From NCBI GenBank assembly GCA_947441055.1, contig CANETC010000001.1, positions 1 to 50,083 on the forward strand: a stretch of 50,083 nucleotides of DNA. The letters run 5' to 3'. Each line of letters starts with the position of its first letter. The first letter of the stretch is position 1. The position numbers and the translations under genes were made by a program. This document shows positions 14,814-30,246 of this stretch, piece after piece. The notes under the pieces were generated by a model, which was not told the DNA's origin, did no database searches, and was given only the letters and a program-made list of their open reading frames with translations. The DNA is from Cytophagaceae bacterium (lineage in GTDB: Bacteria > Bacteroidota > Bacteroidia > Cytophagales > Flexibacteraceae).

Positions 14814-14822
14814 ATGTCTTAA

Positions 14823-15242: not shown

Positions 15243-15246
15243 TGCA

Positions 15247-15497
15247 ATTGTCTTAACTGTGATTCTTTTGATATTAATTTTTTCTTTCGAATCATCGCGA
15301 ATTTCCACATTGTCTTAACTGTGATTCTTTTGATTTCTGTGATTTTGGTGATATTAATTTTTTCGTTTCTAATTATCGTGAATATCCTCATTGTCTTAAC
15401 TGTGATTCTTTTGATTTAAGTGATTTCAATGAAATCTATCTTTTCTTCCTATTATCATATTAATCAAAAAATCACAAAAATCATAGTTCAGACATTT
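15247..15497 (-). repeat. three tandem repeat units (62, 81 and ~105 nt) with terminal inverted repeats TGTCTTAACTGTGATT ... AATCATAGTTCAGACA
   Basis: ATTGTCTTAACTGTGATTCTTTTGAT starts at 15247, 15309 and 15390. The last unit ends ...AATCATAGTTCAGACATT near 15497. The family is shared with 16660-16747 and, inverted, with 5519-5777. Confidence 0.8.
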
Positions 15498-15504
15498 TCC
15501 TGAT

Positions 15505-16629: not shown

Positions 16630-16659
16630 ATCGCCAACTCTTTATAGTTTTCAGAAATG

Positions 16660-16747
16660 CTTGTCTTCACTGTGATTTTTATGATTAAAGGATTACCCTG
16701 ATTAATCATACAATCATACCAATCAGATGAATCATAGTTCAGACATT
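16660..16747 (-). repeat. single ~88-nt copy of the TIR-bounded repeat family, between hsdM and hsdS
   Basis: CTTGTCTTCACTGTGATT...AATCATAGTTCAGACATT. The ends are mutually complementary and match those of the 15247-15497 units. Confidence 0.7.
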
Positions 16748-16750
16748 GTT

Positions 16751-18823
16751 TCATAGTGCAAGCTCTTTGTAATTGTTCATAATGATTTGGGCCAGTTGAG
16801 TGGCTTCTTCATTCAATCCTTCCAACTCAATGTGTATTTCGTTCAGGCGTTCTTCGTAGTCAGAGTCATCATCAGTAGCGGTATCCACGCCAACATATCG
16901 GCCCGGGCTCAGGCTCCAGTCTTTGGCTTCAATTTCTTTTTGCGTAACTACTTTACATAATCCTTCCACATCGGTATAAACGCCTTCGGGGAAACGGTTT
17001 GTAAGCCAATGGGCTTGTTTGTAGAAATATTCGGTTTCGTGCAGCAATCCGGGTTCTTCTTCATCGGGGTTGCCGCTGAGTTGCTGTTGCAGGTCTTTCA
17101 GGATATCCAGTTTTTCTTTGATACCAAGGTCTTTCCAATCTCTGTTTTTGGCCAGCTGATATTCTTTATTTGCTGTTGAGATAACATCCAGCAATTGTTT
17201 TATCAGCTTATCCTGTGGTTTGCGGATTGCTTTGCATTGCCGGGCAATTTCTTCCAGGATCTGGTGGTCGGGCATTGCTTTCTCGGCAACCGAGATCAAT
17301 TGCTTTTGCAAATCAGCCATTTCTGGCATACCTGCCAGATTCAAGGCCTCAACCCATTTTTCGGCAGCCGGTATTTCTTTGGTAAAACGCGCTGCAAATT
17401 CAAATACAGCACGATAAGTCACTTGTAAATGCTCCTGTAATGCCCGAGTTGCATCTGCAGTTTCCTTGGCCAGGGCAGTAGTCTGCTCCAAATATCCGGA
17501 AACTGTTTTTTCAAATTTTTCGGCATGGCCGCGGTATAAGCCAACAATACAAATCAGGTTTTGCAATTGCTCGGGGCTAAAGTCGTTTACCTTGCTGGTA
17601 ACCTTGCGGTAAATTTTTCGGGCATCAAGCATCAGTACTTTATCTTTTTTTGCTTCGTCCTGTTCTTTGGCTCTGTCAAAAAACCACAGGGTGCAAGGCA
17701 ATGAACGGGTATAAAAAAAGTTGTTGCCAATGGCCATCATCACATCTACCGCACCTGTTTTTACCAGCTTTTCCCGTATGTCTTTCTCGCTATGGCCTGC
17801 ATCGCTGGCAGACGAAGCCATTACAAAACCTGCTCTGCCGGTTGGCTTCAGGTAGTTGTAGAAGTATTGAATCCACAGATAATTGGCATTGTCGTTTTTG
17901 GGCAGGTTAACGGTCCCGTCCAGTTTCAGCCGGGGATCTTTTTTAACGGCATCCTTTGCCTTATCCACTCCATCCACATTAAAGGGAGGATTGGCCATTA
18001 CAAAATCGGCACCACCTACAATGTTGTGTTTGTCTTCGTAAAAAGTATTGCCTTCCTGAATATTGCCTTCCAGTCCGTGAACGGTTAAGTTCATCTTTGC
18101 CAGTTTGGTATTGAGGTCGGCTTTTTCCTGTCCGTAGAAGGTAACTTTTTCGGCAGGCTTTAGTCCTTCGCTTTCTATGAAATAGCCCGTTTGCACAAAC
18201 ATACCTGCACTTCCGCAGGCCGGATCGAACACTATGCCGTGGTCGGGTTCAATTACATTTACAATGGTTTGCACAAGGCTCATTGGTGTAAAAAATTCTC
18301 CGCCTTCCTGCGCACCGGACATGGCAAATTTGCCCAGGAAGTATTCATAAATCTTCCCGAACAAATCGCCTTCGGCTTTTTGCAACACTTCTTTATTGAA
18401 AATGCGGAGCAGTTCGCGCAAGAGGTCTTTGCTGAAAATGGAATAGTTTTTTGGCAAAACACCTCTGAGGGTTTCATATTCCTCTTCAATCAGTCTCATG
18501 GCATTGTCTATGGCCTGACCGGTGTCTGCACTTTCGGGCAGGTTAACCAGAAAGTCGAACCGGGCTCCTTCAGGAAGAAACATGGCATTTTGCTCCAGAA
18601 AATCATTTTTTTCTATTGCCCTCCTGCCTCTTTGAGGATGAAAGGGCAGGGTTTGCTCTACCAGGGCCTGAACTTTTACAAATCGGTTAAAGGCATGCCG
18701 CAGAAAAATTAAGCCCAGCACGGGCATGGAATATTCTGATGCCGTTAGTTTGGAATTGGCTCTAAGCTGGTCGGCGGCTCGCCAAAGTTCTGCCTCCAGT
18801 TGTCTTAATTGTTTACCCTGCAT
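16751..18823 (-). CDS. hsdM: type I R-M N6-adenine DNA methyltransferase subunit M
   Basis: HsdM_N segment LWRAADQLRANSKLTASEYSMPVLGLIFLR. SAM motif VFDPACGSAGMF. Catalytic motif VMANPPFN. About 200 aa of helical C-terminal extension. Confidence 0.92.
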   Translation of the reverse strand: MQGKQLRQLEAELWRAADQLRANSKLTASEYSMPVLGLIFLRHAFNRFVKVQALVEQTLPFHPQRGRRAIEKNDFLEQNAMFLPEGARFDFLVNLPESADTGQAIDNAMRLIEEEYETLRGVLPKNYSIFSKDLLRELLRIFNKEVLQKAEGDLFGKIYEYFLGKFAMSGAQEGGEFFTPMSLVQTIVNVIEPDHGIVFDPACGSAGMFVQTGYFIESEGLKPAEKVTFYGQEKADLNTKLAKMNLTVHGLEGNIQEGNTFYEDKHNIVGGADFVMANPPFNVDGVDKAKDAVKKDPRLKLDGTVNLPKNDNANYLWIQYFYNYLKPTGRAGFVMASSASDAGHSEKDIREKLVKTGAVDVMMAIGNNFFYTRSLPCTLWFFDRAKEQDEAKKDKVLMLDARKIYRKVTSKVNDFSPEQLQNLICIVGLYRGHAEKFEKTVSGYLEQTTALAKETADATRALQEHLQVTYRAVFEFAARFTKEIPAAEKWVEALNLAGMPEMADLQKQLISVAEKAMPDHQILEEIARQCKAIRKPQDKLIKQLLDVISTANKEYQLAKNRDWKDLGIKEKLDILKDLQQQLSGNPDEEEPGLLHETEYFYKQAHWLTNRFPEGVYTDVEGLCKVVTQKEIEAKDWSLSPGRYVGVDTATDDDSDYEERLNEIHIELEGLNEEATQLAQIIMNNYKELAL

Positions 18824-18952: not shown

Positions 18953-20437
18953 CTACACCAGCCTCCAGCCCCATTGCTTCTTTTCCTTGTTGTAGGATTT
19001 TATGGCATGGCCGGTGAGGTCGCTTCCATCGCTCAGCTGGTATTTCGCTACCAGTGCGGGGGGGATAAATGCATCTTCCAGAAATCCGAAGGTCTTGCCT
19101 TCCAGTATTTTTACCTGGCCGGCAACATACTTGTAAAAGCGGCTTTTGAATTCTTCATCCTGCACCTTTTCTGCTGTGTAGACCTGATGCATGCCTTCTT
19201 TGCTTCCACCCTGAAATCGCACGCTCAATACATCGCCCGGTTTAACATCCGGGAGCAAGCGGTCATATTTGAAGTAGCCAAGCCGGTTTTCTGATGCTAT
19301 AAAGTTGAGCATCTTCTTGTCCTTGTTAACGAACTCCACAAAAATCCGCTCTTCCGGCACATCGCTGTACAGAATAGCATCGGCCCGGAAAGCATGCTGT
19401 TTGTAAAACTTCAGGTTGGATGGCAAATCGCTTGCCTGCTGGTACCAATCTTCAAGAATCCAGCTAACCACTTCCGGTGGGATTTTAAAGCCCATATCGG
19501 AGCGAACCTCTACCAGCGTGTTGATTTCGGTTCTGGCCTCGTTGTAAAATCCTTTTTCCATCATTAACCCAGCCATTTTCTGGCGCAGGCTCACCAGCAT
19601 TTCTTTCGGGCTTTTACAAAGTAGGGCCCGGCAATAACAGGCAAGCACAGTATCCGGATCTTCGGAAAAAGCCTCGGCAATTACCTCCCAAACCCAGAAG
19701 TCATTTTTCTTTTTCCGGGCAAAAGGCAGCAAGGCCTCTAGCACATTATTTCTGTTTCCAAGCGCTAGTAATAGCTTTGCCTGAAAATAGGGTGGGTATT
19801 GATATTCTGGGTGATTCTCGACCACTTCTTCCAGCCGGGGTAAAAAGGCGGCCGCCTTACCCCGGTCAAATCCTGCTTGTCCGGGTAGCAATTGTTTGGC
19901 ATAGGCAATGTAGGCCTGCTCTACAAGCGCCATCATATCCTTGCCATTTTCTAATTTTTCCTTTTGCCAGTCTTCCGGCCGGAAATGGTTGAAATTCCAC
20001 CAGTCGGCAAAAGGTATGTAATGAGCGCTACCCTTGAGCAATTTATGAAATGCCTTGTAGAGAAAACTGTAGCCTTCTTCTCCTTTTGGGAAATGGAACG
20101 ATTTTATTGCCTCAAAAAGCTGAACGGTCTGCTGCTGCGGGAGTGGGTTAAGCTTTGCCATACTCATACCCATACGGCCGATTTGCCAAGCAACATTGCC
20201 AAACAGCAGTTTTTCATCTACTGTAAGTTCGAGTTCACGAATCGCATTCAGCCAAACAAGAAATTCGTTGAAAGCTCCGGCATGGGCATTGAGTTTCAGG
20301 TAATCGTAGTACACCCAGCTGATGTTGCGTTTCGGCCAGATGTTATCCGGTTCGGCAATACACTCCGCCTTTGCCATTTCAAGTGCGGCTTCCAGATTGC
20401 CTTGTTGACGTAGTTCTTTTATTTCTTTAGACGGCAT
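18953..20437 (-). CDS. hypothetical protein: N-terminal TPR-like helical repeats, C-terminal tandem OB/S1-like segments
   Basis: 494 aa. The helical-repeat N-terminal part includes QQGNLEAALEMAKAECIAEP. The C-terminal beta-rich segments are GDVLSVRFQGGSKEGMHQVYTAEKV and GQVKILEGKTFGFLEDAFIPPALV...GHAIKSYNK. The start overlaps the helicase stop by 11 nt. The domain calls are by eye only. Confidence 0.45.
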   Translation of the reverse strand: MPSKEIKELRQQGNLEAALEMAKAECIAEPDNIWPKRNISWVYYDYLKLNAHAGAFNEFLVWLNAIRELELTVDEKLLFGNVAWQIGRMGMSMAKLNPLPQQQTVQLFEAIKSFHFPKGEEGYSFLYKAFHKLLKGSAHYIPFADWWNFNHFRPEDWQKEKLENGKDMMALVEQAYIAYAKQLLPGQAGFDRGKAAAFLPRLEEVVENHPEYQYPPYFQAKLLLALGNRNNVLEALLPFARKKKNDFWVWEVIAEAFSEDPDTVLACYCRALLCKSPKEMLVSLRQKMAGLMMEKGFYNEARTEINTLVEVRSDMGFKIPPEVVSWILEDWYQQASDLPSNLKFYKQHAFRADAILYSDVPEERIFVEFVNKDKKMLNFIASENRLGYFKYDRLLPDVKPGDVLSVRFQGGSKEGMHQVYTAEKVQDEEFKSRFYKYVAGQVKILEGKTFGFLEDAFIPPALVAKYQLSDGSDLTGHAIKSYNKEKKQWGWRLV

Positions 20438-22616
20438 ATTCTTCTTGTTTCAGGGTTTGAATTGCTAACTGTATTTCGGACAGTAAAGCCGGGCTATTGG
20501 ATTTATTGGTCAGTGGCAGAACTCGGCCAAAAAAGCCATGCTGGTTGTATTCAAAATCGAGCATCGCACGCTGGCTGCCTTTGGTAAAAGTGTATCGTTC
20601 CCGGTAATCAAAGTGCTCTACGGCTTCAATGGCAATATCGCTTGAATCAAACAATGATTTTAAATCGTCGTATAAGTAGCGGGTAAAAGGAAATTTCTCT
20701 TCCTGCTCTACTTCAAAGGCCAATTTACTCAGAATGGTTTCCGGGCTATTCCGCTGAATGGTCAGTTTTGGGAGTTCTTGTAAAATACCGGCGATTTCGC
20801 TGTTGAATGCAGCATGGGGGGAGGCTCCCGGAATTAAAGCAAACTGTTTCTTAAATTCGTTTTGTCCATTTATCCAGGTTTTAAGGCTTGCCCGCTCCTG
20901 CTCCCGTTGAAAAGTGTACCAGATTTCATAGGCCTTTCTCTCCCAGGCCACAATTTCAATATACTTGTTTCGTACAGCATGCCGTACCTGAATGAAATGA
21001 TCCTGGAGTTGAGCAGGTTGTTCTGCAAGACCCATTTCGCTGAGTGCTTTTAGTATGTCGGGATCAATTGAGATGTCTTCAGGTTGAAGGACTTTACCGC
21101 TCAGTTCTTCCAAACCTTTTATCACCGGCATTTCCAAAAAGGATAAAGTGGAATAAGAGTTGAAAAAGGGTGGATTTAGAGCAAAATGTTTTTTTGAACT
21201 GCGGGTTACAGCCGTATAGGCCCAGCGATAAAACTCTTTATTGGTCTTACCGGCCTTTCGCTGCTTATCCGTGAGGTAGTTGAAGTTATCCGCATTTTCA
21301 TGATCCCAGATGCTGAATACCTGTTCCCACTCTCCACCCTGCGCTTTATGACAGGTTACAGCATAGCCATATTTTAACCGCAGGCAGTTAAAATACCCAT
21401 CATTCATTATGGCATCTTTAAACTCGGGCGTCTCCGATCTAAGCCCTGGATGCCTTTGCGTGAAATCCACATACAAGGCCTGGGTTTCTTCAGGAGTCAG
21501 GTAATTATCTCCGAAAAGGAAATTCTCCAGCATCAAGCCTTTTACCAACTTGTTGCTGCTTTCGCCATCAGGAAAAACAAGTTCCACATTGCGCCAGACC
21601 AAATTTACAGGGGCTTTCCCCTTCAGGTAAATTGTGCGTCGGATTGGGGAATCATCTGCAGAATTCACTACAGCAAATTCACCATTAAAAACACCCTTGC
21701 GGTAGTTATTGGCCCCAATAATCACAATTTCACCTTTCTGGGGCGGAAGCATCCGGCTGCCATATTTTCTTTCCCTGATCCTTAAATTGATATCAAGACA
21801 GGTTTTGTTTTTACTGGCAATAATGATTTTTGTGCTTTTCACACCTTCCCATATACTCAAAAAATCATCACCTGCGAGATTGAAAACATCCCGGTTGTTT
21901 GCCTTCAGATTAAAGTCGTTGAAATAGCCGGCCGAAATACTCTTTCGGATTTTAGTCGCCGCAAGCAGGATACCGCTTTCGCCCTCCTGGCGCAAAACTT
22001 CTTTTAGCTCCGCCTCCTGACAGGAAAGTTTAAATTTTTCCCTGAAATAATCGGGTTCAAAAGCTTTGGAACTGTTATCGCCAACGGGAGCAAGCTGGCA
22101 GGGATCTCCAACAAAAATAATCTTGGAATGAACATTGGGTTCCTTAACCCGAGTATATTCGATTAGGTCATCAAGCAAAAATCCAGATCCAAACCGAAAA
22201 AATTCGCCTTCACTTTTGGCATTCGAAACCATGGAAGCCTCATCCACAATAAAAACTTTGCCAGCCACATCAATGTTATTGCGCAAAGCATACGAATAGA
22301 AAAAGGAGTCTCCTTCATTAACTTCTACCAGGCGATCAAAGCAATAAATGCCTTTATGGATGGTTACAGCTTCCTGGCCTGTCTTTTCCCGAATTACTTT
22401 GGCGGCCCGCCCGGTTGGGGCCAGAAGAGCAAAATCTTTTGAAATGGAATTCAGGTATTGAACAAGTCCTTTGAGAATGGTGGTTTTACCACTACCGGCA
22501 TACCCTTTTAGCATAAACACAGGATCTGAACCTTGGAAAAAGCGCTCCAATTTGCCCAGGGCTTCTTCCTGCGAAGGGGTTAATTGCAGTTCCTCAAAAT
22601 GACTGAAAATACGCAT
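20427..22616 (-). CDS. SF1 (RecD/Dda/Pif1-like) helicase with ~260-aa unknown C-terminal extension
   Basis: Walker A GYAGSGKTT. Motif II FIVDEASMV. Motif III IFVGDPCQLAPV. Motifs V/VI YAVTCHKAQGGEW and YTAVTRS. The start lies 8 nt after the upstream ORF's stop. Confidence 0.8.
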   Translation of the reverse strand: MRIFSHFEELQLTPSQEEALGKLERFFQGSDPVFMLKGYAGSGKTTILKGLVQYLNSISKDFALLAPTGRAAKVIREKTGQEAVTIHKGIYCFDRLVEVNEGDSFFYSYALRNNIDVAGKVFIVDEASMVSNAKSEGEFFRFGSGFLLDDLIEYTRVKEPNVHSKIIFVGDPCQLAPVGDNSSKAFEPDYFREKFKLSCQEAELKEVLRQEGESGILLAATKIRKSISAGYFNDFNLKANNRDVFNLAGDDFLSIWEGVKSTKIIIASKNKTCLDINLRIRERKYGSRMLPPQKGEIVIIGANNYRKGVFNGEFAVVNSADDSPIRRTIYLKGKAPVNLVWRNVELVFPDGESSNKLVKGLMLENFLFGDNYLTPEETQALYVDFTQRHPGLRSETPEFKDAIMNDGYFNCLRLKYGYAVTCHKAQGGEWEQVFSIWDHENADNFNYLTDKQRKAGKTNKEFYRWAYTAVTRSSKKHFALNPPFFNSYSTLSFLEMPVIKGLEELSGKVLQPEDISIDPDILKALSEMGLAEQPAQLQDHFIQVRHAVRNKYIEIVAWERKAYEIWYTFQREQERASLKTWINGQNEFKKQFALIPGASPHAAFNSEIAGILQELPKLTIQRNSPETILSKLAFEVEQEEKFPFTRYLYDDLKSLFDSSDIAIEAVEHFDYRERYTFTKGSQRAMLDFEYNQHGFFGRVLPLTNKSNSPALLSEIQLAIQTLKQEEYAV

Positions 22617-22624
22617 AGCTCATT

Positions 22625-24511
22625 TTACTGAGGCAAAGGTGAAATGGAAGTGTGCGGTGGAGGTGCATAGGAAAAAATCTTAAGAAAAATCTTAAAGAAG
22701 AATAAAACATCCGTTGAATTAATTTTATTATCAGCCTTTACTCTACCTGTATAATGTGCAGCTACATTGCTTCTAAAATACCTAAGAGCAATTATCTTCT
22801 CAATATCTACTTTCGGCACAGAGTGGCGGAAATGCAAAACAGAAATTATTTTGACTAATGAGGTTGCATCGATACCACTTGAAAATGTGGTTTTTAACTC
22901 GCTCTTCTCAAAAGCATTAAATGACTTTATAGTTTCCGCTTCATTTTCGTTTTGAAATTCAATTCGACCTCTTACAAGTTCTAATTTAGTCAATATGTTC
23001 TTATTGTCGGATGATTGAGTAAAAATGTCAATTAATATTTCCTTATCAATTGAACAAACCTTACCGGAAGAGTTCTTAAAATCAAAAACCCCAACAAATG
23101 GCAAATCACAGTAATTCTCCAATACCTGAAAAGAAATTAAAAGACATTGATTTATTATTAATTCATTGGAAGATGATAGAGAAAGTAAATTAAAAATTTG
23201 GTCGAGAAATCCATTTTTTCCAAAAGTTAAATCAGCAAATTCTTTTCCATCAACCCGATTTGAAAAAATATTGACCCTTTTTAAGTTATAAATATTCCGA
23301 AAAAGTTCGGCTAAAAAAATATTATTTGCAGCTTCAGAAACCTGTTTAGTAAAATGCAGAAAAGTTGTCCGCGTTTGATTTCTGTTATTAAACGTTTCAG
23401 GCGACTCCTTTATTGTGAAGTATTTTACACCTTGCTCTAAACAATTTTGATAATTCCACACCTTATTTGATGCGGTTGAAACAATAATTTGAATTCCCGG
23501 ATTTTGTTTCTTAATAAACTTAATAATTTGAATTCCTGTTAAACTTTCAAATTCCTGCTCTATAAAATCATCATCATGTAATCTGAGATCAATGATAAAA
23601 ATATCAATTGGCTGACTTGAATTAATTACATCGAACACCCAATTTGTAATTTCAAATATCAATTGTTCTTTACTCTTATCCTTCTGAAAATTAATATATG
23701 GGACAATTGAAGCTTTTGATTTATCAAAAATATAGCTATAAAATTCAAACCATCCTTTATATGCTTCATCATCAATGAGCCCAAAATTTAATCCATCAAT
23801 ATTTTTAATTAAAAAATTGCCAGTATGCTTTCTTGAATTGAATATTTGTCGGTTTGCTTTTGCTTCTAAATGTTTAAAATGTAATGTTTTTAAATATTCT
23901 AAATCGAATAATTTTTTTCGAAAACTAGAATAAAAAAAATTACTTTCATCTTTCTCTAACATTGTAAAATATCTTGCAAGCGCCCATTCATTTGCTACAT
24001 TATGATGGTTTTGGTAATTCGCAGGCGGGTTAATAGTAATTGATTTATAAAAGGAAGATAAATCATAAAGCTTCTGTATTCGACCTTCAGAAAACATATT
24101 AAGAACATTATAGTAATCTTCTAAGGACTCTTTCATCAGATAGAGGCCATTTGTAAAAAGGATTGAAGGTTCCGGATAAATCAAGCCCAAATACTGAAAG
24201 CTTTCTTCGCAAATTATTATAATTGGAATTTTAGCTTTTTCACCTAAACCTTTAGACATCCTAATATGATAAGCTAATCTAAGTCCAAGATATTCTAAAT
24301 AGTTCTGGGAAAGTGCTGCCTTAATAAAAACAATATCGCTCCTTTCAATCTTTTTCTTAAGACCAACATCATGCTCTTCATCTAGGCTTTCAGTAATATA
24401 TAAATCTATATCCTTATCGAAATCAAGATCAAATCGGAATGATTCAGAAACTGGGAAAAAAATATCTTTATTAAATGAGGTGTTGTCAGAATGAACTAAT
24501 AACTTTTTCAT
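22625..24511 (-). CDS. uncharacterised 628-aa protein: N-terminal pseudo-receiver-like region, central CheY-like receiver domain, C-terminal HEPN-like Rx5H motif
   Basis: The REC pattern spans residues ~241-370 (23402-23791): FGLIDDE, IDIFIIDLRL (candidate Asp308), IQIIVSTAS, GVKYFTIKE. The C-terminus LRYFRSNVAAHYTG gives Rx5H at 22754-22774. About 30% GC. The start forms an ATGA overlap with the upstream ORF's stop. Confidence 0.5.
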   Translation of the reverse strand: MKKLLVHSDNTSFNKDIFFPVSESFRFDLDFDKDIDLYITESLDEEHDVGLKKKIERSDIVFIKAALSQNYLEYLGLRLAYHIRMSKGLGEKAKIPIIIICEESFQYLGLIYPEPSILFTNGLYLMKESLEDYYNVLNMFSEGRIQKLYDLSSFYKSITINPPANYQNHHNVANEWALARYFTMLEKDESNFFYSSFRKKLFDLEYLKTLHFKHLEAKANRQIFNSRKHTGNFLIKNIDGLNFGLIDDEAYKGWFEFYSYIFDKSKASIVPYINFQKDKSKEQLIFEITNWVFDVINSSQPIDIFIIDLRLHDDDFIEQEFESLTGIQIIKFIKKQNPGIQIIVSTASNKVWNYQNCLEQGVKYFTIKESPETFNNRNQTRTTFLHFTKQVSEAANNIFLAELFRNIYNLKRVNIFSNRVDGKEFADLTFGKNGFLDQIFNLLSLSSSNELIINQCLLISFQVLENYCDLPFVGVFDFKNSSGKVCSIDKEILIDIFTQSSDNKNILTKLELVRGRIEFQNENEAETIKSFNAFEKSELKTTFSSGIDATSLVKIISVLHFRHSVPKVDIEKIIALRYFRSNVAAHYTGRVKADNKINSTDVLFFFKIFLKIFSYAPPPHTSISPLPQ

Positions 24512-25191
24512 GCTATTTCAAGTATTAATCTATCTAGAATTTGCTTAATCTGCTTAATCTCGTCAATAGAGACAAGATTAAACTCATTTCCTGAAAGAGT
24601 TTTTTCTGTTTTCTCGTTCAATAAATCGCTTTTAATAACTTCATTAATTTTCAGATCTCTTACCCTTTTAATAATTTCACTTTCATCTATTTGCGCATTT
24701 GGAATTTGCGTTTTGATTACTTGCTTGTTTATAGCGACGGCTAAATAATTCCGTAGGTTAAGAAGCAGACTCAATTTCCACTTTCTCCCGAATTGAAGTA
24801 CTAGTAAATTGATATTACTATTTTCCTCAAATTTCTCTATAAACAATTTAAGATTTTCAGAATAAAAATCTCTTGAATTAATATGAAGGAAGGGAAATTC
24901 TACATCCTTAATTACACTTGATGTAATTCCACCAGAAAAGAAAATTAATGGTTTTCTTTTTGATCTACAATAATCCTTTAATGTATCTCTAACTTCAGTT
25001 GAAAATGCAGATCGGTGAGAGGCAATACATTCAAATTGATCGAGTATACTGGTGTCATTAATCTTTAAGGAGTTAACTAGGGTGTCAAATTCAGAACCGG
25101 TAATTATTGAAACTGATTTATAACTTTTCAAATCAAAATCAGCATACTGTTCAAGTCGGCCTATTCTATCTTCAATTATTGAAATTTTCAT
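24508..25191 (-). CDS. uncharacterised 227-aa protein (weak flavodoxin/receiver-like pattern)
   Basis: MKISIIEDR... and KRKPLIFFSGG weakly resemble the beta1 and beta4 strands of a CheY-like fold. ATGA overlaps occur at both ends (25188-25191 and 24508-24511). About 30% GC. No family was recognised. Confidence 0.45.
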   Translation of the reverse strand: MKISIIEDRIGRLEQYADFDLKSYKSVSIITGSEFDTLVNSLKINDTSILDQFECIASHRSAFSTEVRDTLKDYCRSKRKPLIFFSGGITSSVIKDVEFPFLHINSRDFYSENLKLFIEKFEENSNINLLVLQFGRKWKLSLLLNLRNYLAVAINKQVIKTQIPNAQIDESEIIKRVRDLKINEVIKSDLLNEKTEKTLSGNEFNLVSIDEIKQIKQILDRLILEIA

Positions 25192-27365
25192 TTATAAAAA
25201 GTTAAGATGTGCTTGAAACCATCTGCCGAAACAATTTTTTCAAAGGCTGGAGTCTTTTCATCCGAAACCAGGTAGTTAATCCGGTATGCACCTTCAGAAA
25301 ATTCAGACTCAATACTCCAATCGCAGAGATTTTTTAATTTGTCTTTTATTGTACTAAAGTCTCCTCTCTTTAGGTTGAGCTTGTCATCATGAATCGACAA
25401 TCCCTTCTTTATTGAATTCTGATGTAAAATCTCAAGAACCATTTTCTCAGAATTACTTACAGTTATTGCATATTCTACATCGGGATGTTGCGGATACTTT
25501 TGGATTCCTTCAAAAATTAAATCAAGAGCTTTACTGAGCCATTGGATATCAGCATAGAATGTTTTGTTTTCCAAATTGGAAATCTTTGGAGGGGAAAAAC
25601 TGATTAAGTAACTATCATGTTTTTGAAGTATTAGGTTTAGCAATGCAGAGTTTTCATCCCTAACTTCAATTTCATTTTTGAACACATCAATTATGTGCTT
25701 AAATTTTTGAAGTGTTTTGCCGGACCGCTGAATCTGAAACTTTTCAGGTAAAATAAAATCTTCTGGATTCAATGAAGTATCATTTTTACAGGCCGCAATT
25801 AACTCTGGTGAGCTCCATCCAAAATAAATGCGCTTTTTTGGATTAATATCTCCCCATCCAGTATTTTCTATCTTACTATTGAAAATAAAATTATAAATTT
25901 TCCCATTAAGATTTGGACTTAACTCCTTAAGCCTAAAGCTAAAAGAATTATATCTCTTTTTTGCTTGATCAATAAAATCATTCAAATCTTTAAATAAATT
26001 TGAATCCCTGCCGGCATCCCAACTATGAGTTGTATATTTCAATGGACTATTATTAATTGAGAAATTTTTTAATAAGTTAACAAGTTCCTTGGGGCAATGA
26101 AAAATTGGAATTATTCCGATTTCTATTTGTTCAATATTTTTTTCTTGAGGCCTCTTTTCAAAGGCATCAAAAATACTGTCTAAATCTATTCCGCTAAAGT
26201 CTTCTTCTAAGTCAAAATCGTTGGATATGCCATCCATTGATTTTGCTTTATTTGAGTTTACAGTAGAAATATCAATCAGTCTTTTTGATAATTTATTAAA
26301 TACAGAGCTACTTGGACTCTTCACCATCTTCAAAAACTCCAGCTTGCCAGCCAGTACATTTTCCATTGCAGGAGCGCCTTTTTTTACATGGCCTTTATCA
26401 TCCAGGTATTGCCTGGAAAAGATGGCAGATGCTTTTTCATATCCATACCGTTCCCAATAATACAGCCACATACGAAGTTGTTTGATGTAGCGTTTTGGCA
26501 CATTGGGTTTTTCGTGCACAAGCAGCCCGGTTACCTCTTTCCGGTAGCCGTCTTTCTGGAGGCGGGTCTTGCTCTCCTTGATGTAAAATCCCTGTTCTAC
26601 TATTATTCGCCTGAGTTCCGTTAGAAAATCGCCTTCTGCATGGTAAACACTGTGCATGGAACTGAAGGTTATGTCATCTGCATAGCGGCTGTATGTTAAA
26701 CCAAATCTTTTGGCTACCCCGCTAAGAAGATGATCTAAACGCTGGCAAACCATATTTGTAATTACAGGGGATGTAGGGGCGCCCTGCGGCAGGACTTTTC
26801 GTTTCACTTTTTCCCATTCGCCGTTTGCATTCGGGCGCTCCACTTCCATTTCTGTACAACATAGCCCTGCAATAACGGAGGCAAGTTTTATTCTTTCCCC
26901 AACCAGGTTAAACGGTTTCAGTTGGAGGCATTTCCAAACTCGTGCCTGTTCAATGGTAGGAAAAAAATCTTTTAAATCTATGTTGTATACATAATACTTG
27001 CCAACATGAGGCAGGGCATTATCTACAATGGATTTATCTCGAACAAATCCCGTTGCAGCCTTGTGTGGTTCAAATACACACTGCAATATAAATGCCATTG
27101 TACGCTGTATGGCTTTTAACCCTTTCACCGGTGCATGTATGCTTCGTTCGCCACCCGACTTTTTCTGGATTTTAAATTCGGCATATCGCTTTCCTCCCAG
27201 ATTGGCATTTGCATACCAGGTAAGCTGTTTTATCTGAAAAGCAACCGCCTTTTCACCGAAAATCAGAGGTTTTACTTCATTCAGCAACTGAAGCAAATCT
27301 TCCCGGGTCTGCATTTTTGAGAATGCATCCTTGATTTGGTCGATATTTTCCTGTTGCGGTTTCAT
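25188..27365 (-). CDS. retron-type reverse transcriptase fused to a ~375-aa C-terminal region of unknown function
   Basis: RT residues ~60-345 carry retron hallmarks: KSIVDNALPH (NAxxH), DLKDFFPTI, LPQGAPTSPVITN, YSRYADDITFSS (YADD at 26673-26684), RKEVTGLLV (VTG at 26526-26534). No recognised family after about residue 350. Confidence 0.85.
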   Translation of the reverse strand: MKPQQENIDQIKDAFSKMQTREDLLQLLNEVKPLIFGEKAVAFQIKQLTWYANANLGGKRYAEFKIQKKSGGERSIHAPVKGLKAIQRTMAFILQCVFEPHKAATGFVRDKSIVDNALPHVGKYYVYNIDLKDFFPTIEQARVWKCLQLKPFNLVGERIKLASVIAGLCCTEMEVERPNANGEWEKVKRKVLPQGAPTSPVITNMVCQRLDHLLSGVAKRFGLTYSRYADDITFSSMHSVYHAEGDFLTELRRIIVEQGFYIKESKTRLQKDGYRKEVTGLLVHEKPNVPKRYIKQLRMWLYYWERYGYEKASAIFSRQYLDDKGHVKKGAPAMENVLAGKLEFLKMVKSPSSSVFNKLSKRLIDISTVNSNKAKSMDGISNDFDLEEDFSGIDLDSIFDAFEKRPQEKNIEQIEIGIIPIFHCPKELVNLLKNFSINNSPLKYTTHSWDAGRDSNLFKDLNDFIDQAKKRYNSFSFRLKELSPNLNGKIYNFIFNSKIENTGWGDINPKKRIYFGWSSPELIAACKNDTSLNPEDFILPEKFQIQRSGKTLQKFKHIIDVFKNEIEVRDENSALLNLILQKHDSYLISFSPPKISNLENKTFYADIQWLSKALDLIFEGIQKYPQHPDVEYAITVSNSEKMVLEILHQNSIKKGLSIHDDKLNLKRGDFSTIKDKLKNLCDWSIESEFSEGAYRINYLVSDEKTPAFEKIVSADGFKHILTFYK

Positions 27366-27377
27366 TATCTTTTAAAA

Positions 27378-27615
27378 ATGTTCCTTGATGCCTGCTGCGT
27401 ATTCTTTGTTTATGAATCATGAAAAATTAATTCATAATAATATAAGAATATTTCATAATAATATAAGATCTTCAGTTTTCACTTACTGATGAACTATTAA
27501 TTACCAGGAGACATTCATTCCGGATTACTCCGGAACACCAGCCGATTTGAAATTGCCTTGCGGCAACCTCCAGCTGGCACGAGTCAATATCTTGCAGCAG
27601 GCATTCAATGAACAT
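27378..27615 (-). ncRNA. candidate retron-like msr/msd non-coding RNA bounded by an a1/a2-type inverted repeat
   Basis: The arms are 27594-27615 (GCAGCAGGCATTCAATGAACAT, + strand) and 27378-27398 (ATGTTCCTTGATGCCTGCTGC). They pair over 11 + 3 + 6 bp with one bulge and one mismatch. The arm nearest the RT lies 12 nt from its ATG. The 195-nt interior contains nested hairpins at 27538-27577, 27518-27535 and 27410-27437. This is a prediction only. Confidence 0.5.
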
Positions 27616-27671
27616 GGTGCAAAGTAATCAGGCAATAGTGCAATGTAGCTGCACAGTTGAAAAATAATCTA

Positions 27672-27679
27672 TAAATTTG
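27672..27679 (+). promoter_or_regulatory. candidate -7 box (TAAATTTG) for the WYL regulator gene
   Basis: Matches TAnnTTTG 67 nt upstream of ATG 27747. Confidence 0.3.
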
Positions 27680-27693
27680 TTCTGAGAAATTTC

Positions 27694-27705
27694 GGAATGC
27701 ATTCC
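27694..27705. promoter_or_regulatory. perfect 12-bp palindrome GGAATGCATTCC between the candidate -7 box and the WYL gene start; possible operator
   Basis: Read directly from the sequence. Its position downstream of the putative promoter fits an autoregulatory site. Confidence 0.3.
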
Positions 27706-27746
27706 ATGCTGTCTTTTCAGCTTACATAAAGAGTTTTACACAATTA

Positions 27747-28763
27747 ATGGCAACCAATAAGAACGCTTTAATCCGATACAAGGTACTGGATGCCTGCTTC
27801 CGCAATACGGGCAGAAAATTCTTCTTTCAGGATTTGATGGATGAAATGGAAAAGGTGTTGAATGAAATTGACCCCGGTAGCAGTGGAATAAGTCGCCGTC
27901 AGCTGTTTGACGACATTGCCTTTATGGAAAGCGGCGAAGGCTGGAGCATTGACCTTGCTCGCCACAGGGATGTCAAGAAGGTTTATTACCGGTATGCCGA
28001 CCCTGATTTTTCAATCAACAATATGCCATTGAGTGAGATTGAAATTCAGCAACTGAAAACGGCCTTGGAAATTCTTACCCAATTTAAAGGCATGCCCCAG
28101 TTCGACTGGATTCATGAAATGGTGCCAAAACTTCAACAGGGCCTTTCTAGCCCGGAAAGTAATGCTTCAGCCATCATTGAGTTTGACAGCAACCAATATC
28201 TGCGTGGCATTGAGTTTCTGGGACAGATTTATATTTCCATTTTCTATAAAAAGGTTCTGTCTATCGGTTATCAGCCATTTGGTACAAGTCAGCCCTTTGA
28301 GATTGTGATTCACCCATACTACCTTAAGCAGTATAATAACCGTTGGTTTCTATTTGGCTACAATCCCGATAAAAGCAAATACGACTGGAATCTTGCCCTC
28401 GACCGTATTTCCTCTATCAGAGAATTGAATACGCGGTATCAGCCTAATTTATCCATCGACTGGCAGGAGTATTTTGAAGATATGATTGGGGTTACCAAGT
28501 CAACTGAAGCCAGAGTTGAAAAAGTCGTCTTGCACTTCAAGGGTGGCACCGGATTTTACATAGAAACGAAGCCCTTGCATGGGTCTCAAAAATCCAGGTG
28601 GCTTGATGAGGACACGCTGGAAGTAAGTATGGAAGTTGTCATCAATTATGAGCTCGAACGGCTTATTCTTTCTTATTCCGACACGGTTACCGTTTTGGAA
28701 CCAAGCAGTTTGTCTGATTTAATCCGCAAGAGGCTGGAGAATTCTCTTGGCACATACTTATAA
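27747..28763 (+). CDS. WYL-domain transcriptional regulator (N-terminal wHTH, central WYL, C-terminal WCX-like)
   Basis: N-terminus NALIRYKVLDACFRN...ISRRQLFDDI looks like a wHTH. HPYYLKQYNNRWFLFGY is the WYL-type motif. It is transcribed divergently from the RT operon. Confidence 0.8.
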   Translation: MATNKNALIRYKVLDACFRNTGRKFFFQDLMDEMEKVLNEIDPGSSGISRRQLFDDIAFMESGEGWSIDLARHRDVKKVYYRYADPDFSINNMPLSEIEIQQLKTALEILTQFKGMPQFDWIHEMVPKLQQGLSSPESNASAIIEFDSNQYLRGIEFLGQIYISIFYKKVLSIGYQPFGTSQPFEIVIHPYYLKQYNNRWFLFGYNPDKSKYDWNLALDRISSIRELNTRYQPNLSIDWQEYFEDMIGVTKSTEARVEKVVLHFKGGTGFYIETKPLHGSQKSRWLDEDTLEVSMEVVINYELERLILSYSDTVTVLEPSSLSDLIRKRLENSLGTYL

Positions 28764-28950: not shown

Positions 28951-30246
28951 ATGAACAACATCGTTTGCCCCAAATGCAGGGAAACATTCAAGGTGGATGA
29001 GGCCAGTTTTGCCGACATCCTGAAGCAAGTGCGCGACCGGCAGTTTAATGAAGAACTGCAAAGCCGCATGGAAATGGCAGAAAGGGATAAGGAAAGCGCC
29101 CTGAAACTGGCAGAAGCCAAACTCCGGAATTCTTTTCAGGAGTACCTCTCCAAAAAGGACAAGGAACTTTCGGATTTGCATTTGCAAAATTAGCGTCAAC
29201 TCAATGAGCAACTCGCCAAAAGAGAAATTGAACTCGCTGAAATGAAATCCAAAATTGAACATGCCGAAACTGAGAAGAAGTTGTCGGTGGCGGAGGCGGT
29301 TCAACGGATTGAAATAGAACGAAACAATCTGGTGAATGATGTAAAAATGAAGGACGCGGAAAAGGAGTTGCTTGAAAAAGCCCTGACCGAAAAATACAAG
29401 TCTGAACTTCAGTTGAAAAACGACATCATCCGCATGAAGGATGATGAAATTGCGCTCCGCAAAGACATGAAGCTGAAGCTCTCAACCAAAATGCTGGGTG
29501 AAACACTTGAGCAGCATTGCGAGACGGAGTTCAATAAAATTCGCTCCATGGCTTTTCCCAATGCCTATTTTGAAAAGGACAATGATTCAAGTTCGGGCAG
29601 CAAAGGCGATTTTATTTTCCGTGAAACAGATGCGGCAGGCAATGAAATTGTCTCCATCATGTTTGAAATGAAAAACGAAGGCGATGAAACCGCCACAAAA
29701 AAAAGAAACGAAGATTTTTTTAAAGAGCTCGACAAGGACCGCAACGAAAAGAAGTGCGAATATGCCGTGCTGGTAACGCTGTTGGAATCGGAAAGCGAAC
29801 TGTACAACGGCGGCATTGTGGATGTGTCGCACAAGTACCCGAAGATGTATGTAATCCGGCCTCAGTTTTTCATTCCCATCATCACCTTGCTGCGCAATGC
29901 CGCTTTGAATTCGTTGAAATACAAAGCAGAGCTGGCCCTGGTGCGCAACCAGAGCATTGACATCACCAATTTTGAGGATGATTTGAATAAATTTAAGGAG
30001 GGATTTGCCCGGAATTATGAACTGGCAAGCCGGAAATTTATGACAGCCATTGAGGAAATAGACAAGACCATCAGTCACCTCCAGAAAACCAAGGAGGCCC
30101 TGCTTTCCTCCGAAAACAACCTTCGCCTGGCCAACAACAAAGCGGAAGACATCTCCATCAAAAAACTCACCCGCGACAATCCCACCATGATGGCAAGGTT
30201 CTCGGCATTGTCGGATGATGCTTCAAATCAACCAACTGTAAACTAA
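28951..30246 (+). pseudogene. DUF2130-family protein (zinc-ribbon N-terminus, coiled coil, RmuC/PD-(D/E)xK-like C-terminal part) interrupted by an in-frame TAG at 29191-29193
   Basis: Track ORFs 28951..29193 and 29242..30246 share one frame (29242 - 29191 = 51). The sequence across the stop reads LHLQN*RQLNEQLAKREIELAEMKSK with a continuous coiled-coil character. N-terminus CPKC. C-terminal part GDFIFRE...IMFEMKNE. Confidence 0.7.

What the first reader, a model, noticed from the sequence alone, without database searches (positions are those of the whole stretch)
27366..27746. Structured ~380-nt leader with a 21/22-nt long-range inverted repeat resembling retron a1/a2, ending 12 nt before the RT start codon
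Seen in sequence:
- ATGTTCCTTGATGCCTGCTGC (27378-27398) and GCAGCAGGCATTCAATGAACAT (27594-27615) are reverse complements over 11 + 3 + 6 bp, with one bulge and one mismatch. They enclose 195 nt.
- On the RT (minus) strand the interior holds a nested hairpin: CCAGC...GCUGG (27538-42 / 27573-77) around UUGCC-GCAA-GGCAA (27553-66).
- It also holds a perfect 7-bp hairpin UUCCGGA-GUAA-UCCGGAA (27518-35).
- It also holds an 8-bp AT hairpin (27410-37) and a 2 x 17-nt direct repeat at 21-nt spacing (27431-47 and 27452-68).
- A near-consensus -7 box (TTACTTTG, 27620-27627 on the minus strand) sits just 5' of the distal arm.

Established knowledge: in retrons the msr-msd RNA lies directly upstream of ret and is closed by a1/a2. 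The branching G follows a1.

Inference: the G at about 27591 (AAG after the arm) could be the priming guanosine. One caveat is that the putative msd part is AT-rich with direct repeats rather than one long hairpin, which is atypical.
Basis: partly seen in the sequence, partly recalled or inferred. Interest (0 to 1): 0.82.

Follow-up and report, generated by a model that had tools for sequence, protein, structure and literature searches.

The report
Retron-type RNA upstream of reverse transcriptase
The stretch in front of this reverse-transcriptase gene encodes a conserved, folded RNA of about 235 bases that has the layout of a retron template RNA; it belongs to a Bacteroidota retron lineage that a 2026 preprint described by computation only, so it is a solid but not unprecedented find.

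Summary
The RT strand folds far better than shuffles (z -7.2; element alone z -9.6).

About 75 homologous loci, nearly all labelled Bacteroidota, carry the same element, once each, on the RT strand upstream of the RT gene. All three helices covary strongly. The inner half of a1 is hypervariable, and each locus has its own matching a2, in most loci 7-20 nt before the RT ATG.

The RT has the retron motifs NAxxH, YADD and VTG, and its nearest solved relatives are retron RTs. The layout around a1 and a2 resembles experimentally validated type XI/XII retron RNAs.

Corrections:
- The RNA probably starts at a1, so it is about 235-250 nt, not 380.
- The upstream part holds a conserved operator palindrome and a promoter.
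- The proposed priming G (27591) is G in only 56 of 71 sequences; G27585 is near-invariant.

The family matches the "TXI_C2like" type XI-like retron lineage (Toro, bioRxiv 2026). msDNA has not been shown for it. The operon also encodes an RT-histidine-kinase fusion, receiver, helicase-TBP and TPR-S1/CSD (TOTE) proteins, with a divergent WYL regulator.

The parts
27638..27654 (-). Operator-like palindrome GTGCAG-N5-TTGCAC (family consensus TGTGCAG-N5-CTGCACA). It overlaps the -33 region of the ncRNA/RT promoter and is the putative binding site of the divergent WYL regulator.
   Evidence: TGCA-N7-TGCA is present in 55 of 70 distinct loci, and most of the rest have a one-mismatch variant. It ends 22-24 nt before the first G of a1. 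Who binds it is inferred.
27620..27627 (-). Bacteroidetes-type -7 promoter box, TTACTTTG (consensus TAnnTTTG).
   Evidence: A -7-like box ends 4-6 nt before the first G of a1 in 50 of 70 loci. The consensus itself comes from my own knowledge of Bacteroidetes promoters. No sigma-70 promoter above chance was found.
27594..27613 (-). a1, the 5' arm of the closing helix P1 (GUUCAUUGAAUGCCUGCUGC). The outer half is invariant and the inner half is hypervariable between loci. The predicted transcript 5' end lies here.
27579..27593 (-). Single-stranded linker AAGAUAUUGACUCGU. It holds the two candidate priming guanosines, G27591 (G in 56 of 71) and G27585 (G in 69 of 71).
   Evidence: Column counts on the covariance-model alignment.
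27537..27578 (-). P2, the first msr-like stem-loop: a conserved basal helix with invariant G.U and U.G pairs, an internal loop, and a variable apical helix.
   Evidence: 13 pairs, 95-99% paired, with compensatory changes in 10 of them. The G.U pairs make the structure specific to the RT strand.
27517..27536 (-). P3, the second msr-like hairpin (UUCCGGA-GUAA-UCCGGAA).
   Evidence: 8 pairs, all with compensatory changes across 71 sequences.
27499..27516 (-). Conserved unpaired block GAAUGUCUCCUGGUAAUU (family consensus GAAUGU...). By analogy to validated relatives, the RT is predicted to stop about here.
   Evidence: Sequence conservation. The stop position is inferred.
27416..27498 (-). Variable AT-rich region, the putative body of the msd template. 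In the window it forms two hairpins and contains a 21-nt tandem duplication.
   Evidence: Length ranges from 37 to 170 nt and GC is 0.25 across 70 loci. In 20 sampled loci it folds into one or two hairpins with z from +0.3 to -6.1. The direct repeats are (D2, D4).
27399..27415 (-). Conserved A-rich block UCAUAAACAAAGAAUAC just 5' of a2. By analogy, reverse transcription is predicted to start near G27404.
   Evidence: Columns are invariant or nearly invariant. The analogy to the mapped RT-DNA 5' ends of type XI/XII retrons is.
27380..27398 (-). a2, the 3' arm of P1 (GCAGCAGGCAUCAAGGAAC). With the extra A-U pairs at its outer end it finishes 12 nt before the RT start codon.
25188..27365 (-). Retron-type reverse transcriptase fused to a C-terminal HisKin-conflict (GHKL histidine-kinase-like) domain, 725 aa.
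   Evidence: Pfam RVT_1 plus HisKin-conflict. The best PADLOC hits are retron RT types XI, XII, XIII and I-C. NAxxH at residue 116, YADD at 228, VTG at 278. The nearest solved structures are retron RTs.
24508..25191 (-). 227-aa protein of unknown family that overlaps the RT stop codon. It is conserved in 23 of 80 loci.
22625..24511 (-). 628-aa protein with an inactive receiver (iREC) domain, a receiver domain, and an uncharacterised C-terminal part.
   Evidence: Pfam iREC, E 4e-15; Response_reg, E 2e-4, which is below the curated cut-off. Weak matches to response regulators in PDB.
20427..22616 (-). SF1 (RecD/Pif1-like) helicase with two C-terminal TBP-TOTE (TATA-binding-protein-like) repeats.
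   Evidence: Pfam AAA_30 and TBP-TOTE. PADLOC PDC-M16A, E 4e-262. Found in 55 of 80 loci within the DNA available.
18953..20437 (-). DUF7017 plus S1CSD-TOTE-1 and S1CSD-TOTE-2 protein, the OB-fold component of TOTE systems.
   Evidence: Pfam. It follows the helicase in the 19 loci where a match was found in the downstream DNA held.
27747..28763 (+). Divergently transcribed WYL-WCX regulator.
   Evidence: Pfam WYL and WCX, PADLOC WYL. A homologue lies next to the RT in 60 of 80 loci.

Best explanation
The region encodes the msr-msd-type non-coding RNA of a type XI-like retron. The retron sits inside a TOTE-class conflict operon.

Shown here:
- A Bacteroidetes-type promoter (operator palindrome, then a -7 box) lies directly in front of a1.
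- The RNA is closed by a covarying a1/a2 helix.
- It contains two covarying msr-like stem-loops (P2 and P3), conserved single-stranded blocks, and a variable AT-rich hairpin region.
- a2 ends 12 nt before the start codon of a retron-clade RT.

Inferred:
- The RNA and the RT are co-transcribed, since no terminator lies between them.
- The RT binds P2, P3 and the conserved single-stranded motifs.
- It uses the 2'-OH of a guanosine in the linker after a1 as primer (G27591 by analogy to validated relatives, or the more conserved G27585).
- It copies the RNA from about G27404, just 5' of a2, back to about 27505, just 3' of P3.
- The product would be a branched, AT-rich msDNA of roughly 100 nt.
- The hypervariable inner a1/a2 pairing gives each locus its own self-matching closing helix.
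- The msDNA-RT complex then acts as the sensor that keeps the operon's effector modules in check until infection. Those modules are the fused histidine kinase, the iREC/receiver protein, the helicase-TBP and the TPR-S1/CSD protein.
- The WYL regulator controls transcription through the palindrome.
For: Fold:
- z -7.2 for 27366-27640 and z -9.6 for the a1-to-a2 element on the RT strand. The opposite strand is 21 kcal/mol weaker.

Conservation:
- A covariance model of the 5' domain finds exactly one hit per source in 75 of 81 sources. All hits are on the RT strand and upstream of the RT.

Covariation:
- Full element, 21 sequences: 91.9% paired against 30-45% when slid; 22 of 40 pairs have double changes.
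- P2 and P3, 71 sequences: 96.1% paired, 422 double-change cells.
- P1 core, 53 sequences, structure-blind alignment: 88% paired against 35-45%; 10 of 12 pairs have double changes.
- There are 50 distinct inner-a1 11-mers. Each pairs with its own a2, which in most loci lies 7-20 nt before the ATG.
- Duplex energy of the inner a1 with the 3' region averages -17.2 kcal/mol for the cognate locus and -10.2 for non-cognate loci.
- Invariant G.U and U.G pairs in P2 fix the strand.

RT:
- PADLOC best hits are retron types XI, XII, XIII and I-C, with E values from 1e-97 to 1e-82.
- NCBIfam best hits are retron families.
- NAxxH, YADD and VTG are present.
- PDB best hits are retron RTs at 1e-31 to 1e-11, against 2e-4 for a group II intron RT.

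Promoter geometry:
- The -7 box ends 4-6 nt before a1 in 50 of 70 loci. The palindrome ends 22-24 nt before a1. No terminator is found.

Homology of layout to validated clade-8 retron ncRNAs with mapped RT-DNA (Khan et al. 2024, PMC10849725):
- a1, then xxG, then an AU-rich heptamer, then a hairpin.
- An A-rich tract (such as AAAACAAAG or AAAAGAG) 6-8 nt before a2, where the RT-DNA begins.

Literature:
- Toro 2026 (bioRxiv 10.64898/2026.05.14.725207) reports a Bacteroidota-only, protease-less, WYL-associated type XI-like lineage. It has a candidate a1/a2-flanked three-stem-loop ncRNA.
- Its table lists HisKin-conflict, iREC, AAA_30 and WYL as neighbours of Bacteroidota type XI RTs.
Against: - No msDNA, transcript or branch point has been shown for this lineage. 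The type XI retrons tested by Khan et al. are all Proteobacteria.
- The guanosine at the position expected by analogy (27591) is A or C in 15 of 71 sequences. Either those loci differ or the primer is elsewhere.
- The presumed msd is AT-rich and usually folds into two modest hairpins rather than one long stem. In some loci it is not more stable than shuffles (z from +0.3 to -6.1 in 20 sampled loci).
- No Rfam family matches, so there is no independent curated model.
- The motif comparison with validated retrons was made by eye on short motifs.
Confidence: 0.8

Rival explanations
1. The folded RNA is only a cis-acting 5' leader of the RT operon. It would act as a regulatory or protein-binding structure, for example bound by the S1/CSD or WYL proteins, or tuning translation of the RT, and would not be reverse-transcribed.
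For: - It lies between the promoter and the start codon, and no terminator separates it from the RT gene.
- a2 ends 7-20 nt before the ATG in most loci, a position from which a helix could influence initiation.
- The operon encodes RNA-binding-type OB folds.
Against: - The adjoining gene is a retron-clade RT with all retron motifs.
- The closing helix is hypervariable yet self-complementary, and the interior is variable. That is the retron pattern rather than that of a ligand-sensing leader.
- The layout parallels validated type XI/XII retron RNAs.
- The element stays with the RT whatever the downstream genes are.
Confidence: 0.1
2. The RNA is a template for the RT, but the product is not a branched retron msDNA. 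It could instead be an unbranched, repetitive or protein-primed cDNA, as in the DRT-type defence reverse transcriptases.
For: - The expected branching G is not invariant.
- In a distant clade of the family the motif UAUUGA recurs 2-5 times in the template region, which hints at repeated recognition or pausing sites.
- From my own knowledge, a helix that closes the template ends is also used by DRT2-type RNAs.
Against: - The RT scores far better against retron models than against Drt2 (E 1e-78 to 1e-97 against 5e-7).
- Relatives in the same RT clade make conventional RT-DNA from the a2-proximal region.
Confidence: 0.08
3. The repeats are DNA-level binding sites (operators) of the WYL regulator and not RNA structure.
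For: A WYL-WCX regulator is encoded divergently. Palindromic DNA is present in the intergenic region.
Against: - The operator-like palindrome is a different element, 25 nt upstream of a1.
- The a1/a2, P2 and P3 pairs covary through G.U intermediates, and they include invariant G.U pairs that would be A.C on the other strand.
- The arms of the long-range repeat are 195 nt apart.
Confidence: 0.01

Closest known systems
Candidate msr/msd ncRNA of the 'TXI_C2like' type XI-like retron lineage (Toro, bioRxiv 2026, 10.64898/2026.05.14.725207)
   Same: - RTs restricted to Bacteroidota, type XI-like (clade 8), without a protease.
- A variable C-terminal extension on the RT.
- WYL genes next door.
- A conserved upstream RNA with three stem-loops flanked by a1/a2, supported by covariation.
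- Its supplementary table lists HisKin-conflict, iREC, AAA_30 and WYL as neighbours of Bacteroidota type XI RTs.
   Different: Identity of the two RNA families is therefore inferred from matching descriptions.
- The preprint does not mention the kinase fusion, the helicase-TBP and S1/CSD (TOTE) partners, the promoter and operator geometry, or the priming guanosine.
- It detected its model in only 37 of 120 loci. Here 75 of 81 sources match.
Experimentally validated clade-8 retrons: type XI (Pseudomonas sp., 'terminal' 1235 and 1278) and type XII (P. aeruginosa, 1195) (Khan et al. 2024, PMC10849725)
   Same: - RT clade.
- a1/a2 closure.
- a1 followed by xxG and an AU-rich heptamer (ACG-AUUUAAC, AAG-CUUUAAC, GG-UAUUAAU, against AAG-AUAUUGA here), then a hairpin.
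- An A-rich tract just before a2, where the mapped RT-DNA starts.
   Different: - Those RNAs are 125-150 nt with one short msr hairpin. This one is about 235 nt with two larger msr hairpins and a much more AT-rich template.
- Their effectors are a fused protease or TIR domain, not kinase, receiver and TOTE proteins.
- Their hosts are Proteobacteria.
- RT-DNA has been shown for them and not for this lineage.
Retron-Eco1 (Ec86) msr-msd, the textbook retron
   Same: The gene order promoter, a1, msr, msd, a2, ret. A retron RT with NAxxH, VTG and YADD (RT similarity E 5e-29).
   Different: - In Ec86 the branching G directly abuts the a1/a2 helix and the msd is one long hairpin (my own knowledge).
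- Here the candidate G lies 3 or 9 nt from the helix, and the msd region forms two AT-rich hairpins.
- No Rfam retron family matches.
TOTE (TPR, OB, TBP, Effector) conflict systems (Aravind, Iyer and Burroughs 2022, as cited in PMC12458937)
   Same: The operon encodes S1CSD-TOTE-1/2 and TBP-TOTE domains, together with HisKin-conflict and iREC domains from the same Pfam 'conflict system' set.
   Different: The source review could not be read here. I therefore cannot say whether an RT-linked structured RNA was described for TOTE systems.
WYL-domain repressors of defence operons (BrxR, CapW type; my own knowledge)
   Same: A divergent HTH-WYL-WCX gene, and a conserved palindrome over the promoter of the defence operon.
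   Different: Binding was not tested. The palindrome also occurs in loci where no WYL gene lies within about 4 kb.

Membership tests
Retron (RT plus msr-msd ncRNA) | The RT belongs to the retron clade and carries the NAxxH (region X), VTG (region Y) and YxDD motifs. | tested here: met
   - PADLOC retron RT models, E 1e-97 to 1e-82.
- NCBIfam best hits are retron families, though below their curated cut-offs.
- NALPH at residue 116, YADD at 228, VTG at 278.
- PDB best hits are all retron RTs.
Retron (RT plus msr-msd ncRNA) | A structured ncRNA gene directly upstream of the RT gene and on the same strand. | tested here: met
   One covariance-model hit per source in 75 of 81 sources, all on the RT strand and upstream of the RT. 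In the window it is 27498-27619(-), at 121.7 bits.
Retron (RT plus msr-msd ncRNA) | a1/a2 inverted repeats close the RNA. | tested here: met
   88% paired against 35-45% when slid. Ten of 12 core pairs have compensatory changes, and 0 of 500 shuffles reach the score. Cognate a2 found in every locus. Cognate against non-cognate duplex energy is -17.2 against -10.2 kcal/mol.
Retron (RT plus msr-msd ncRNA) | A conserved branching guanosine at the 3' end of a1. | tested here: inconclusive
   G27591 lies 3 nt after the helix and is G in 56 of 71 sequences. G27585 lies 9 nt after the helix and is G in 69 of 71. Neither abuts the helix.
Retron (RT plus msr-msd ncRNA) | An msd region that forms a stem-loop and varies between retrons. 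| tested here: inconclusive
   The region varies from 37 to 170 nt and has GC 0.25. In 20 sampled loci it usually forms one or two hairpins with z from +0.3 to -6.1. There is no single long stem.
Retron (RT plus msr-msd ncRNA) | Production of branched RNA-linked msDNA. | not testable with these tools
   This needs nucleic-acid extraction and branch mapping. Only proteobacterial type XI and XII relatives have been validated.
Type XI-like 'TXI_C2like' lineage (Toro 2026 preprint) | A clade-8, type XI-like RT without the C-terminal protease, carrying a variable C-terminal extension. | tested here: met
   The best PADLOC model is RT-Protease_XI, and it matches over the RT part only (positions 24-325 of 510). 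The C-terminus is HisKin-conflict instead. In homologues the kinase is either fused or a separate gene.
Type XI-like 'TXI_C2like' lineage (Toro 2026 preprint) | Bacteroidota host and a neighbouring WYL-domain gene. | tested here: met
   A WYL-WCX gene is divergent at 27747-28763. Nearly all of the 80 homologous loci are labelled Bacteroidota. The window's own organism was not identified; its GC content is 41%.
Type XI-like 'TXI_C2like' lineage (Toro 2026 preprint) | A match to that study's covariance model of the a1/a2-flanked three-stem-loop RNA. | not testable with these tools
   The model and its alignment are not available here. The description (25 pairs, three stem-loops, a1/a2, 38-388 bp upstream of the RT) agrees with what I see.
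TOTE conflict system | TPR/OB (S1/CSD) protein, TBP-like domain and effector in one operon. | tested here: met
   S1CSD-TOTE-1 and -2 plus DUF7017 at 18953-20437. Two TBP-TOTE repeats on the helicase at 20427-22616. Which protein is the effector is not established.
Any Rfam family | A score at or above the family's gathering threshold. | tested here: not met
   No match in the whole window at gathering thresholds. In 26800-28300 only chance-level matches appear (E 1.3-8.7).

The most novel reading that the evidence does not exclude
This is a retron whose msDNA feeds a phosphorelay. The RT is fused to a histidine-kinase-like domain, and a receiver-domain protein, a helicase with TATA-binding-protein-like repeats and an S1/CSD OB-fold protein follow it. 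In this reading, the state of the AT-rich msDNA hairpins (intact, degraded or modified by phage) is read by the TBP-like and OB-fold domains. That signal is then converted into kinase-to-receiver signalling that switches on the effector. This would be a retron mechanism not seen in the characterised toxin-antitoxin-like retrons.
Probability: 0.25. Interest if true: 0.8.

Novelty: new member of a known kind. Interest (0 to 1): 0.5.

Why it matters
Type XI was long one of the few retron types for which no template RNA could be recognised. The Bacteroidota branch has so far only a computational description, in one preprint.

This locus gives a fully delimited candidate: promoter, operator, a1/a2, two msr hairpins, a predicted template of about 100 nt, and two candidate priming guanosines. 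It can be cloned and tested directly.

It also ties that retron lineage to the TOTE and two-component 'conflict' gene sets. That raises a concrete question: are the DNA-binding TBP-like and OB-fold proteins and the fused kinase the readers of the msDNA? If msDNA is made, the AT-rich, length-variable template and the locus-specific a1/a2 pairing could also be useful for retron engineering in Bacteroidota.

Tried and rejected
- Rfam scans found nothing, both at a permissive E-value on 26800-28300 and at gathering thresholds on the whole window.
I modelled the 5' domain instead. I tested a1/a2 separately with duplex folding and with a structure-blind alignment of the two ends.
- By hand, I looked for pairing between the two conserved unpaired blocks, GAAUGUUUCUUGGUUAUU and UCAUAAACAAAGAAU. 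No register gives a convincing helix, and RNAalifold predicts none.
- CAAAGAA in the block before a2 is complementary to the invariant UUCUUUG of a1. I considered an alternative pairing between them. It would cross P1, and it is not kept in the distant clade (sequences), so I dropped it.
- The exact RT protein is not in the contig index, so the source organism was not identified.
- The review that defines TOTE systems could not be read. Literature searches for TOTE plus RT, and for PDC-M16, returned nothing useful.
- PDB sequence searches gave no useful hit for the 227-aa protein. For the 628-aa protein they gave only weak response-regulator matches.
- The sigma-70 promoter scan is at chance level and is not informative for a Bacteroidota-type promoter.
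Full report
**Checking the observation**

The intergenic region 27366-27746 lies between two genes. One is a minus-strand 725-aa ORF (25188-27365). The other is a divergent plus-strand 338-aa ORF (27747-28763).

- A perfect 11-bp inverted repeat at 27388-27398 / 27594-27604, with 195 nt between the arms. It extends outward with one bulge and one mismatch.
- The nested hairpin at 27537-27578 and the 7-bp hairpin at 27517-27536.
- An AT hairpin and 21-nt-spaced direct repeats in 27416-27498.
- TTACTTTG at 27620-27627.

Read as RNA on the RT strand, 27366-27640 folds to -94 kcal/mol. Shuffles give -57.8 +/- 5.0, so z is -7.2. The a1-to-a2 element alone gives z -9.6. The opposite strand is 21 kcal/mol weaker.

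**The neighbouring genes**

- The 725-aa protein is a reverse transcriptase fused to a HisKin-conflict domain.
- Its RT part scores best against retron RT models of types XI, XII, XIII and I-C, with E values from 1e-97 to 1e-82.
- It matches NCBIfam retron families best.
- Its nearest solved structures are all retron RTs (Ec67 at 1e-31, Ec86 at 5e-29, Ec78 at 7e-28). A group II intron RT scores only 2e-4.
- It carries NAxxH (residue 116), YADD (228) and VTG (278).

Downstream, in the same orientation and mostly overlapping or abutting, the operon runs as follows.
- A 227-aa protein of unknown family.
- A 628-aa iREC/receiver protein.
- An SF1 helicase with TBP-TOTE repeats (PADLOC PDC-M16A, E 4e-262).
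- A DUF7017 plus S1CSD-TOTE-1/2 protein.

[quoted passage not shown] The divergent gene encodes a WYL-WCX regulator. A type I restriction-modification cluster follows, so this is a defence island.

**Homologous loci**

A scan of one genome per species returned 80 loci encoding relatives of the RT. Nearly all are labelled Bacteroidota. The proteins are only 40-70% identical.

BLASTN nevertheless shows nucleotide-level conservation of two parts of the upstream region, directly in front of the RT, in more than 40 of these loci. Alignments show a fixed order of elements:
1. a palindrome, TGTGCAG-N5-CTGCACA;
2. a TAnnTTTG-like box;
3. a1;
4. a conserved single-stranded GAUAUUGA;
5. stem-loop P2;
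6. hairpin P3;
7. a conserved GAAUGU... block;
8. a region variable in length and sequence;
9. a conserved CAUAAACAAAGAAUA block;
10. a2;
11. about 13-15 nt further on, the ATG.

**Covariation**

- RNAalifold recovers the a1/a2 core, P2 and P3.
- On the 21-sequence full-length alignment, 91.9% of cells pair, against 30-45% when partners are slid. Twenty-two of 40 pairs show changes on both sides.
- A covariance model of the 5' domain finds exactly one hit per source in 75 of 81 sources. All are on the RT strand and upstream of the RT. The window's hit is 27498-27619(-), at 121.7 bits.
- On that alignment P2 and P3 are 96.1% paired over 71 distinct sequences, with 422 compensatory cells. The alignment is fitted to the structure, which inflates pairing somewhat. 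The number of distinct pair types per position is still large.
- For a1/a2 I used two tests that do not rely on the model.
  - Duplex folding: each locus's a1 was folded against its own downstream sequence. A complementary a2 was found in every locus, in most of them ending 7-20 nt before the ATG. There are 50 different inner-a1 11-mers among 70 elements. Mean duplex energy is -17.2 kcal/mol for cognate pairs and -10.2 for non-cognate pairs.
  - Structure-blind alignment: a MAFFT alignment of the two ends from 53 distinct loci gave 88% pairing, against 35-45% when slid. Ten of 12 pairs carried compensatory changes, and 0 of 500 shuffles reached the score.
- Invariant G.U and U.G pairs in P2 show that the constraint acts on the RT-strand RNA and not on duplex DNA.

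**Promoter and boundaries**

- A -7-like box ends 4-6 nt before the first G of a1 in 50 of 70 distinct loci.
- The palindrome TGCA-N7-TGCA is present in 55 of 70, and ends 22-24 nt before that G. Most of the rest have one-mismatch variants.
- With the Bacteroidetes promoter consensus (my own knowledge), this places the transcription start at or within a few nt of 27613.
- The RNA is therefore about 235-250 nt.
- No intrinsic terminator separates a2 from the RT gene, so co-transcription is likely.
- The palindrome is a good candidate operator for the WYL regulator, but it also occurs where no WYL gene lies within the DNA held.

**The priming guanosine**

In the family alignment that column is G in 56, A in 14 and C in 1 of 71 sequences. 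G27585, within AUAUUGA, is G in 69 of 71.

Validated clade-8 retrons from Khan et al. 2024 have the same local layout.
- Type XI '1278': a1-TACG-ATTTAAC-hairpin.
- Type XII '1195': a1-TCCAAG-CTTTAAC-hairpin.
- Type XI '1235': a1-GG-TATTAAT-hairpin.
- Here: a1-AAG-AUAUUGA-...-P2.

This favours 27591 by position. The loci without a G there argue for 27585, or for heterogeneity. I leave both as candidates.

The same paper maps RT-DNA 5' ends in two of these retrons (1278 and 1195) to an A-rich tract 6-8 nt before a2. It maps 3' ends to 9-12 nt after the msr hairpin. Transferred to this locus, the template would run from about G27404 back to about 27505. That gives an msDNA of roughly 100 nt. This is inference by analogy, made by eye on short motifs.

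**The variable region**

Across 70 elements it is 37-170 nt long with GC 0.25. In 20 sampled loci it usually folds into one or two hairpins, with z-scores from +0.3 to -6.1. The window's AT hairpin and its 21-nt tandem duplication are specific to this locus.

In a more distant clade, with a stand-alone RT of about 396 aa followed by an unknown 335-aa gene and the helicase, the region contains 2-5 copies of UAUUGA. That is the same hexamer that holds the near-invariant G in the linker. I have no explanation for this.

**What is known**

- Mestre et al. 2020 stated that type XI retrons lacked a recognisable ncRNA.
- Khan et al. 2024 validated ncRNAs and RT-DNA for proteobacterial type XI and XII retrons.
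- Toro (bioRxiv, May 2026) described a 'TXI_C2like' lineage. It is Bacteroidota-only and protease-less, has a variable C-terminal extension and is WYL-associated. It has a candidate a1/a2-flanked three-stem-loop RNA, 25 pairs of which 14 covary, lying 38-388 bp upstream of the RT.
- Its supplementary table lists HisKin-conflict, iREC, AAA_30 and WYL among the neighbours of Bacteroidota type XI RTs.

I therefore take the window's element to be a member of that family. This is new to Rfam and untested at the bench, but not a new kind of thing.

What this analysis adds:
- the full anatomy with coordinates;
- the promoter and operator geometry;
- the test of the priming G;
- the match of layout to validated relatives;
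- the recognition that the accessory genes form a TOTE/two-component set.

**Verdict**

- Confidence that this is a conserved functional RNA tied to the RT: about 0.97.
- Confidence that it is a retron template RNA that yields msDNA: about 0.8.
- Interest is moderate (0.5). A specialist would expect a retron RT to have such an RNA, and the lineage has been described computationally.
- The fused kinase and the TBP-like and OB-fold partners make the downstream mechanism open and testable.

Noticed in passing
window 18953-20437 (-): The gene after the helicase encodes DUF7017 plus S1CSD-TOTE-1 and S1CSD-TOTE-2. With the TBP-TOTE repeats on the helicase, this makes the RT operon a complete TOTE-type conflict system. 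A match to it follows the helicase in 19 homologous loci, those where a match lay within the downstream DNA held.
   Followed up: partly
window 8390-18823 (-): A type I restriction-modification cluster: HsdM 16751-18823, HsdS 15505-16629, HsdR 8390-11614. It is interrupted by a PDDEXK_3 nuclease gene (14823-15308), a RecQ-like helicase fused to a phosphoribosyltransferase domain (12798-14813) and a DprA-like gene (11620-12786). This is a defence island directly downstream of the retron operon.
   Followed up: no
L034, L038, L051, L019, L057, L049, L055, L029, L067 (variable region between P3 and a2): In a distant clade of the family the hexamer UAUUGA recurs 2-5 times in the putative template region, sometimes paired with UCAAUA as a hairpin. 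It is the same hexamer as in the conserved linker after a1. It is enriched over a Markov control (TATTGA in 31 of 70 loci against 9.5 expected). The window's own variable region has none.
   Followed up: partly
window 27336-27365 (-), and the first 30 nt of the RT ORF in many loci: The first 30 nt of the RT coding sequence (for example ATGAAAATTGAACAGGCACATATCGACCAA) are nearly identical at the nucleotide level, synonymous positions included, across loci whose RTs are only about 50% identical. This could reflect an RNA-level or translational constraint next to a2.
   Followed up: no
window 27399-27415 and 27606-27612 (-): CAAAGAA in the conserved block just before a2 is complementary to the invariant UUCUUUG at the 5' end of a1. 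It also repeats the sense of the outer half of a2. That allows an alternative pairing that would cross P1. It is not kept in all clades.
   Followed up: partly
L044 (covariance-model hit 3090-3216, RT match from 4001) and L045 (variable region): In L044 the RNA element lies about 900 nt upstream of the start of the RT match, so something is inserted or the start is mis-set. In L045 the variable region contains a second copy of the GAAUGUCGCUUAGGCAUUU block, which is an internal duplication.
   Followed up: no
L038 3050-4057 (+) and equivalent positions in about 20 loci: Loci with a stand-alone RT of about 396 aa have no kinase, 227-aa or receiver genes. In L038 a single 335-aa gene with no Pfam match above threshold sits between the RT and the helicase-TBP gene. 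The RNA-RT-helicase-S1/CSD core is therefore kept while the middle module is swapped.
   Followed up: partly
window 29242-30246 (+): A DUF2130 gene follows the WYL regulator. It has no counterpart in the 80 homologous loci, so it is probably not part of the system.
   Followed up: partly
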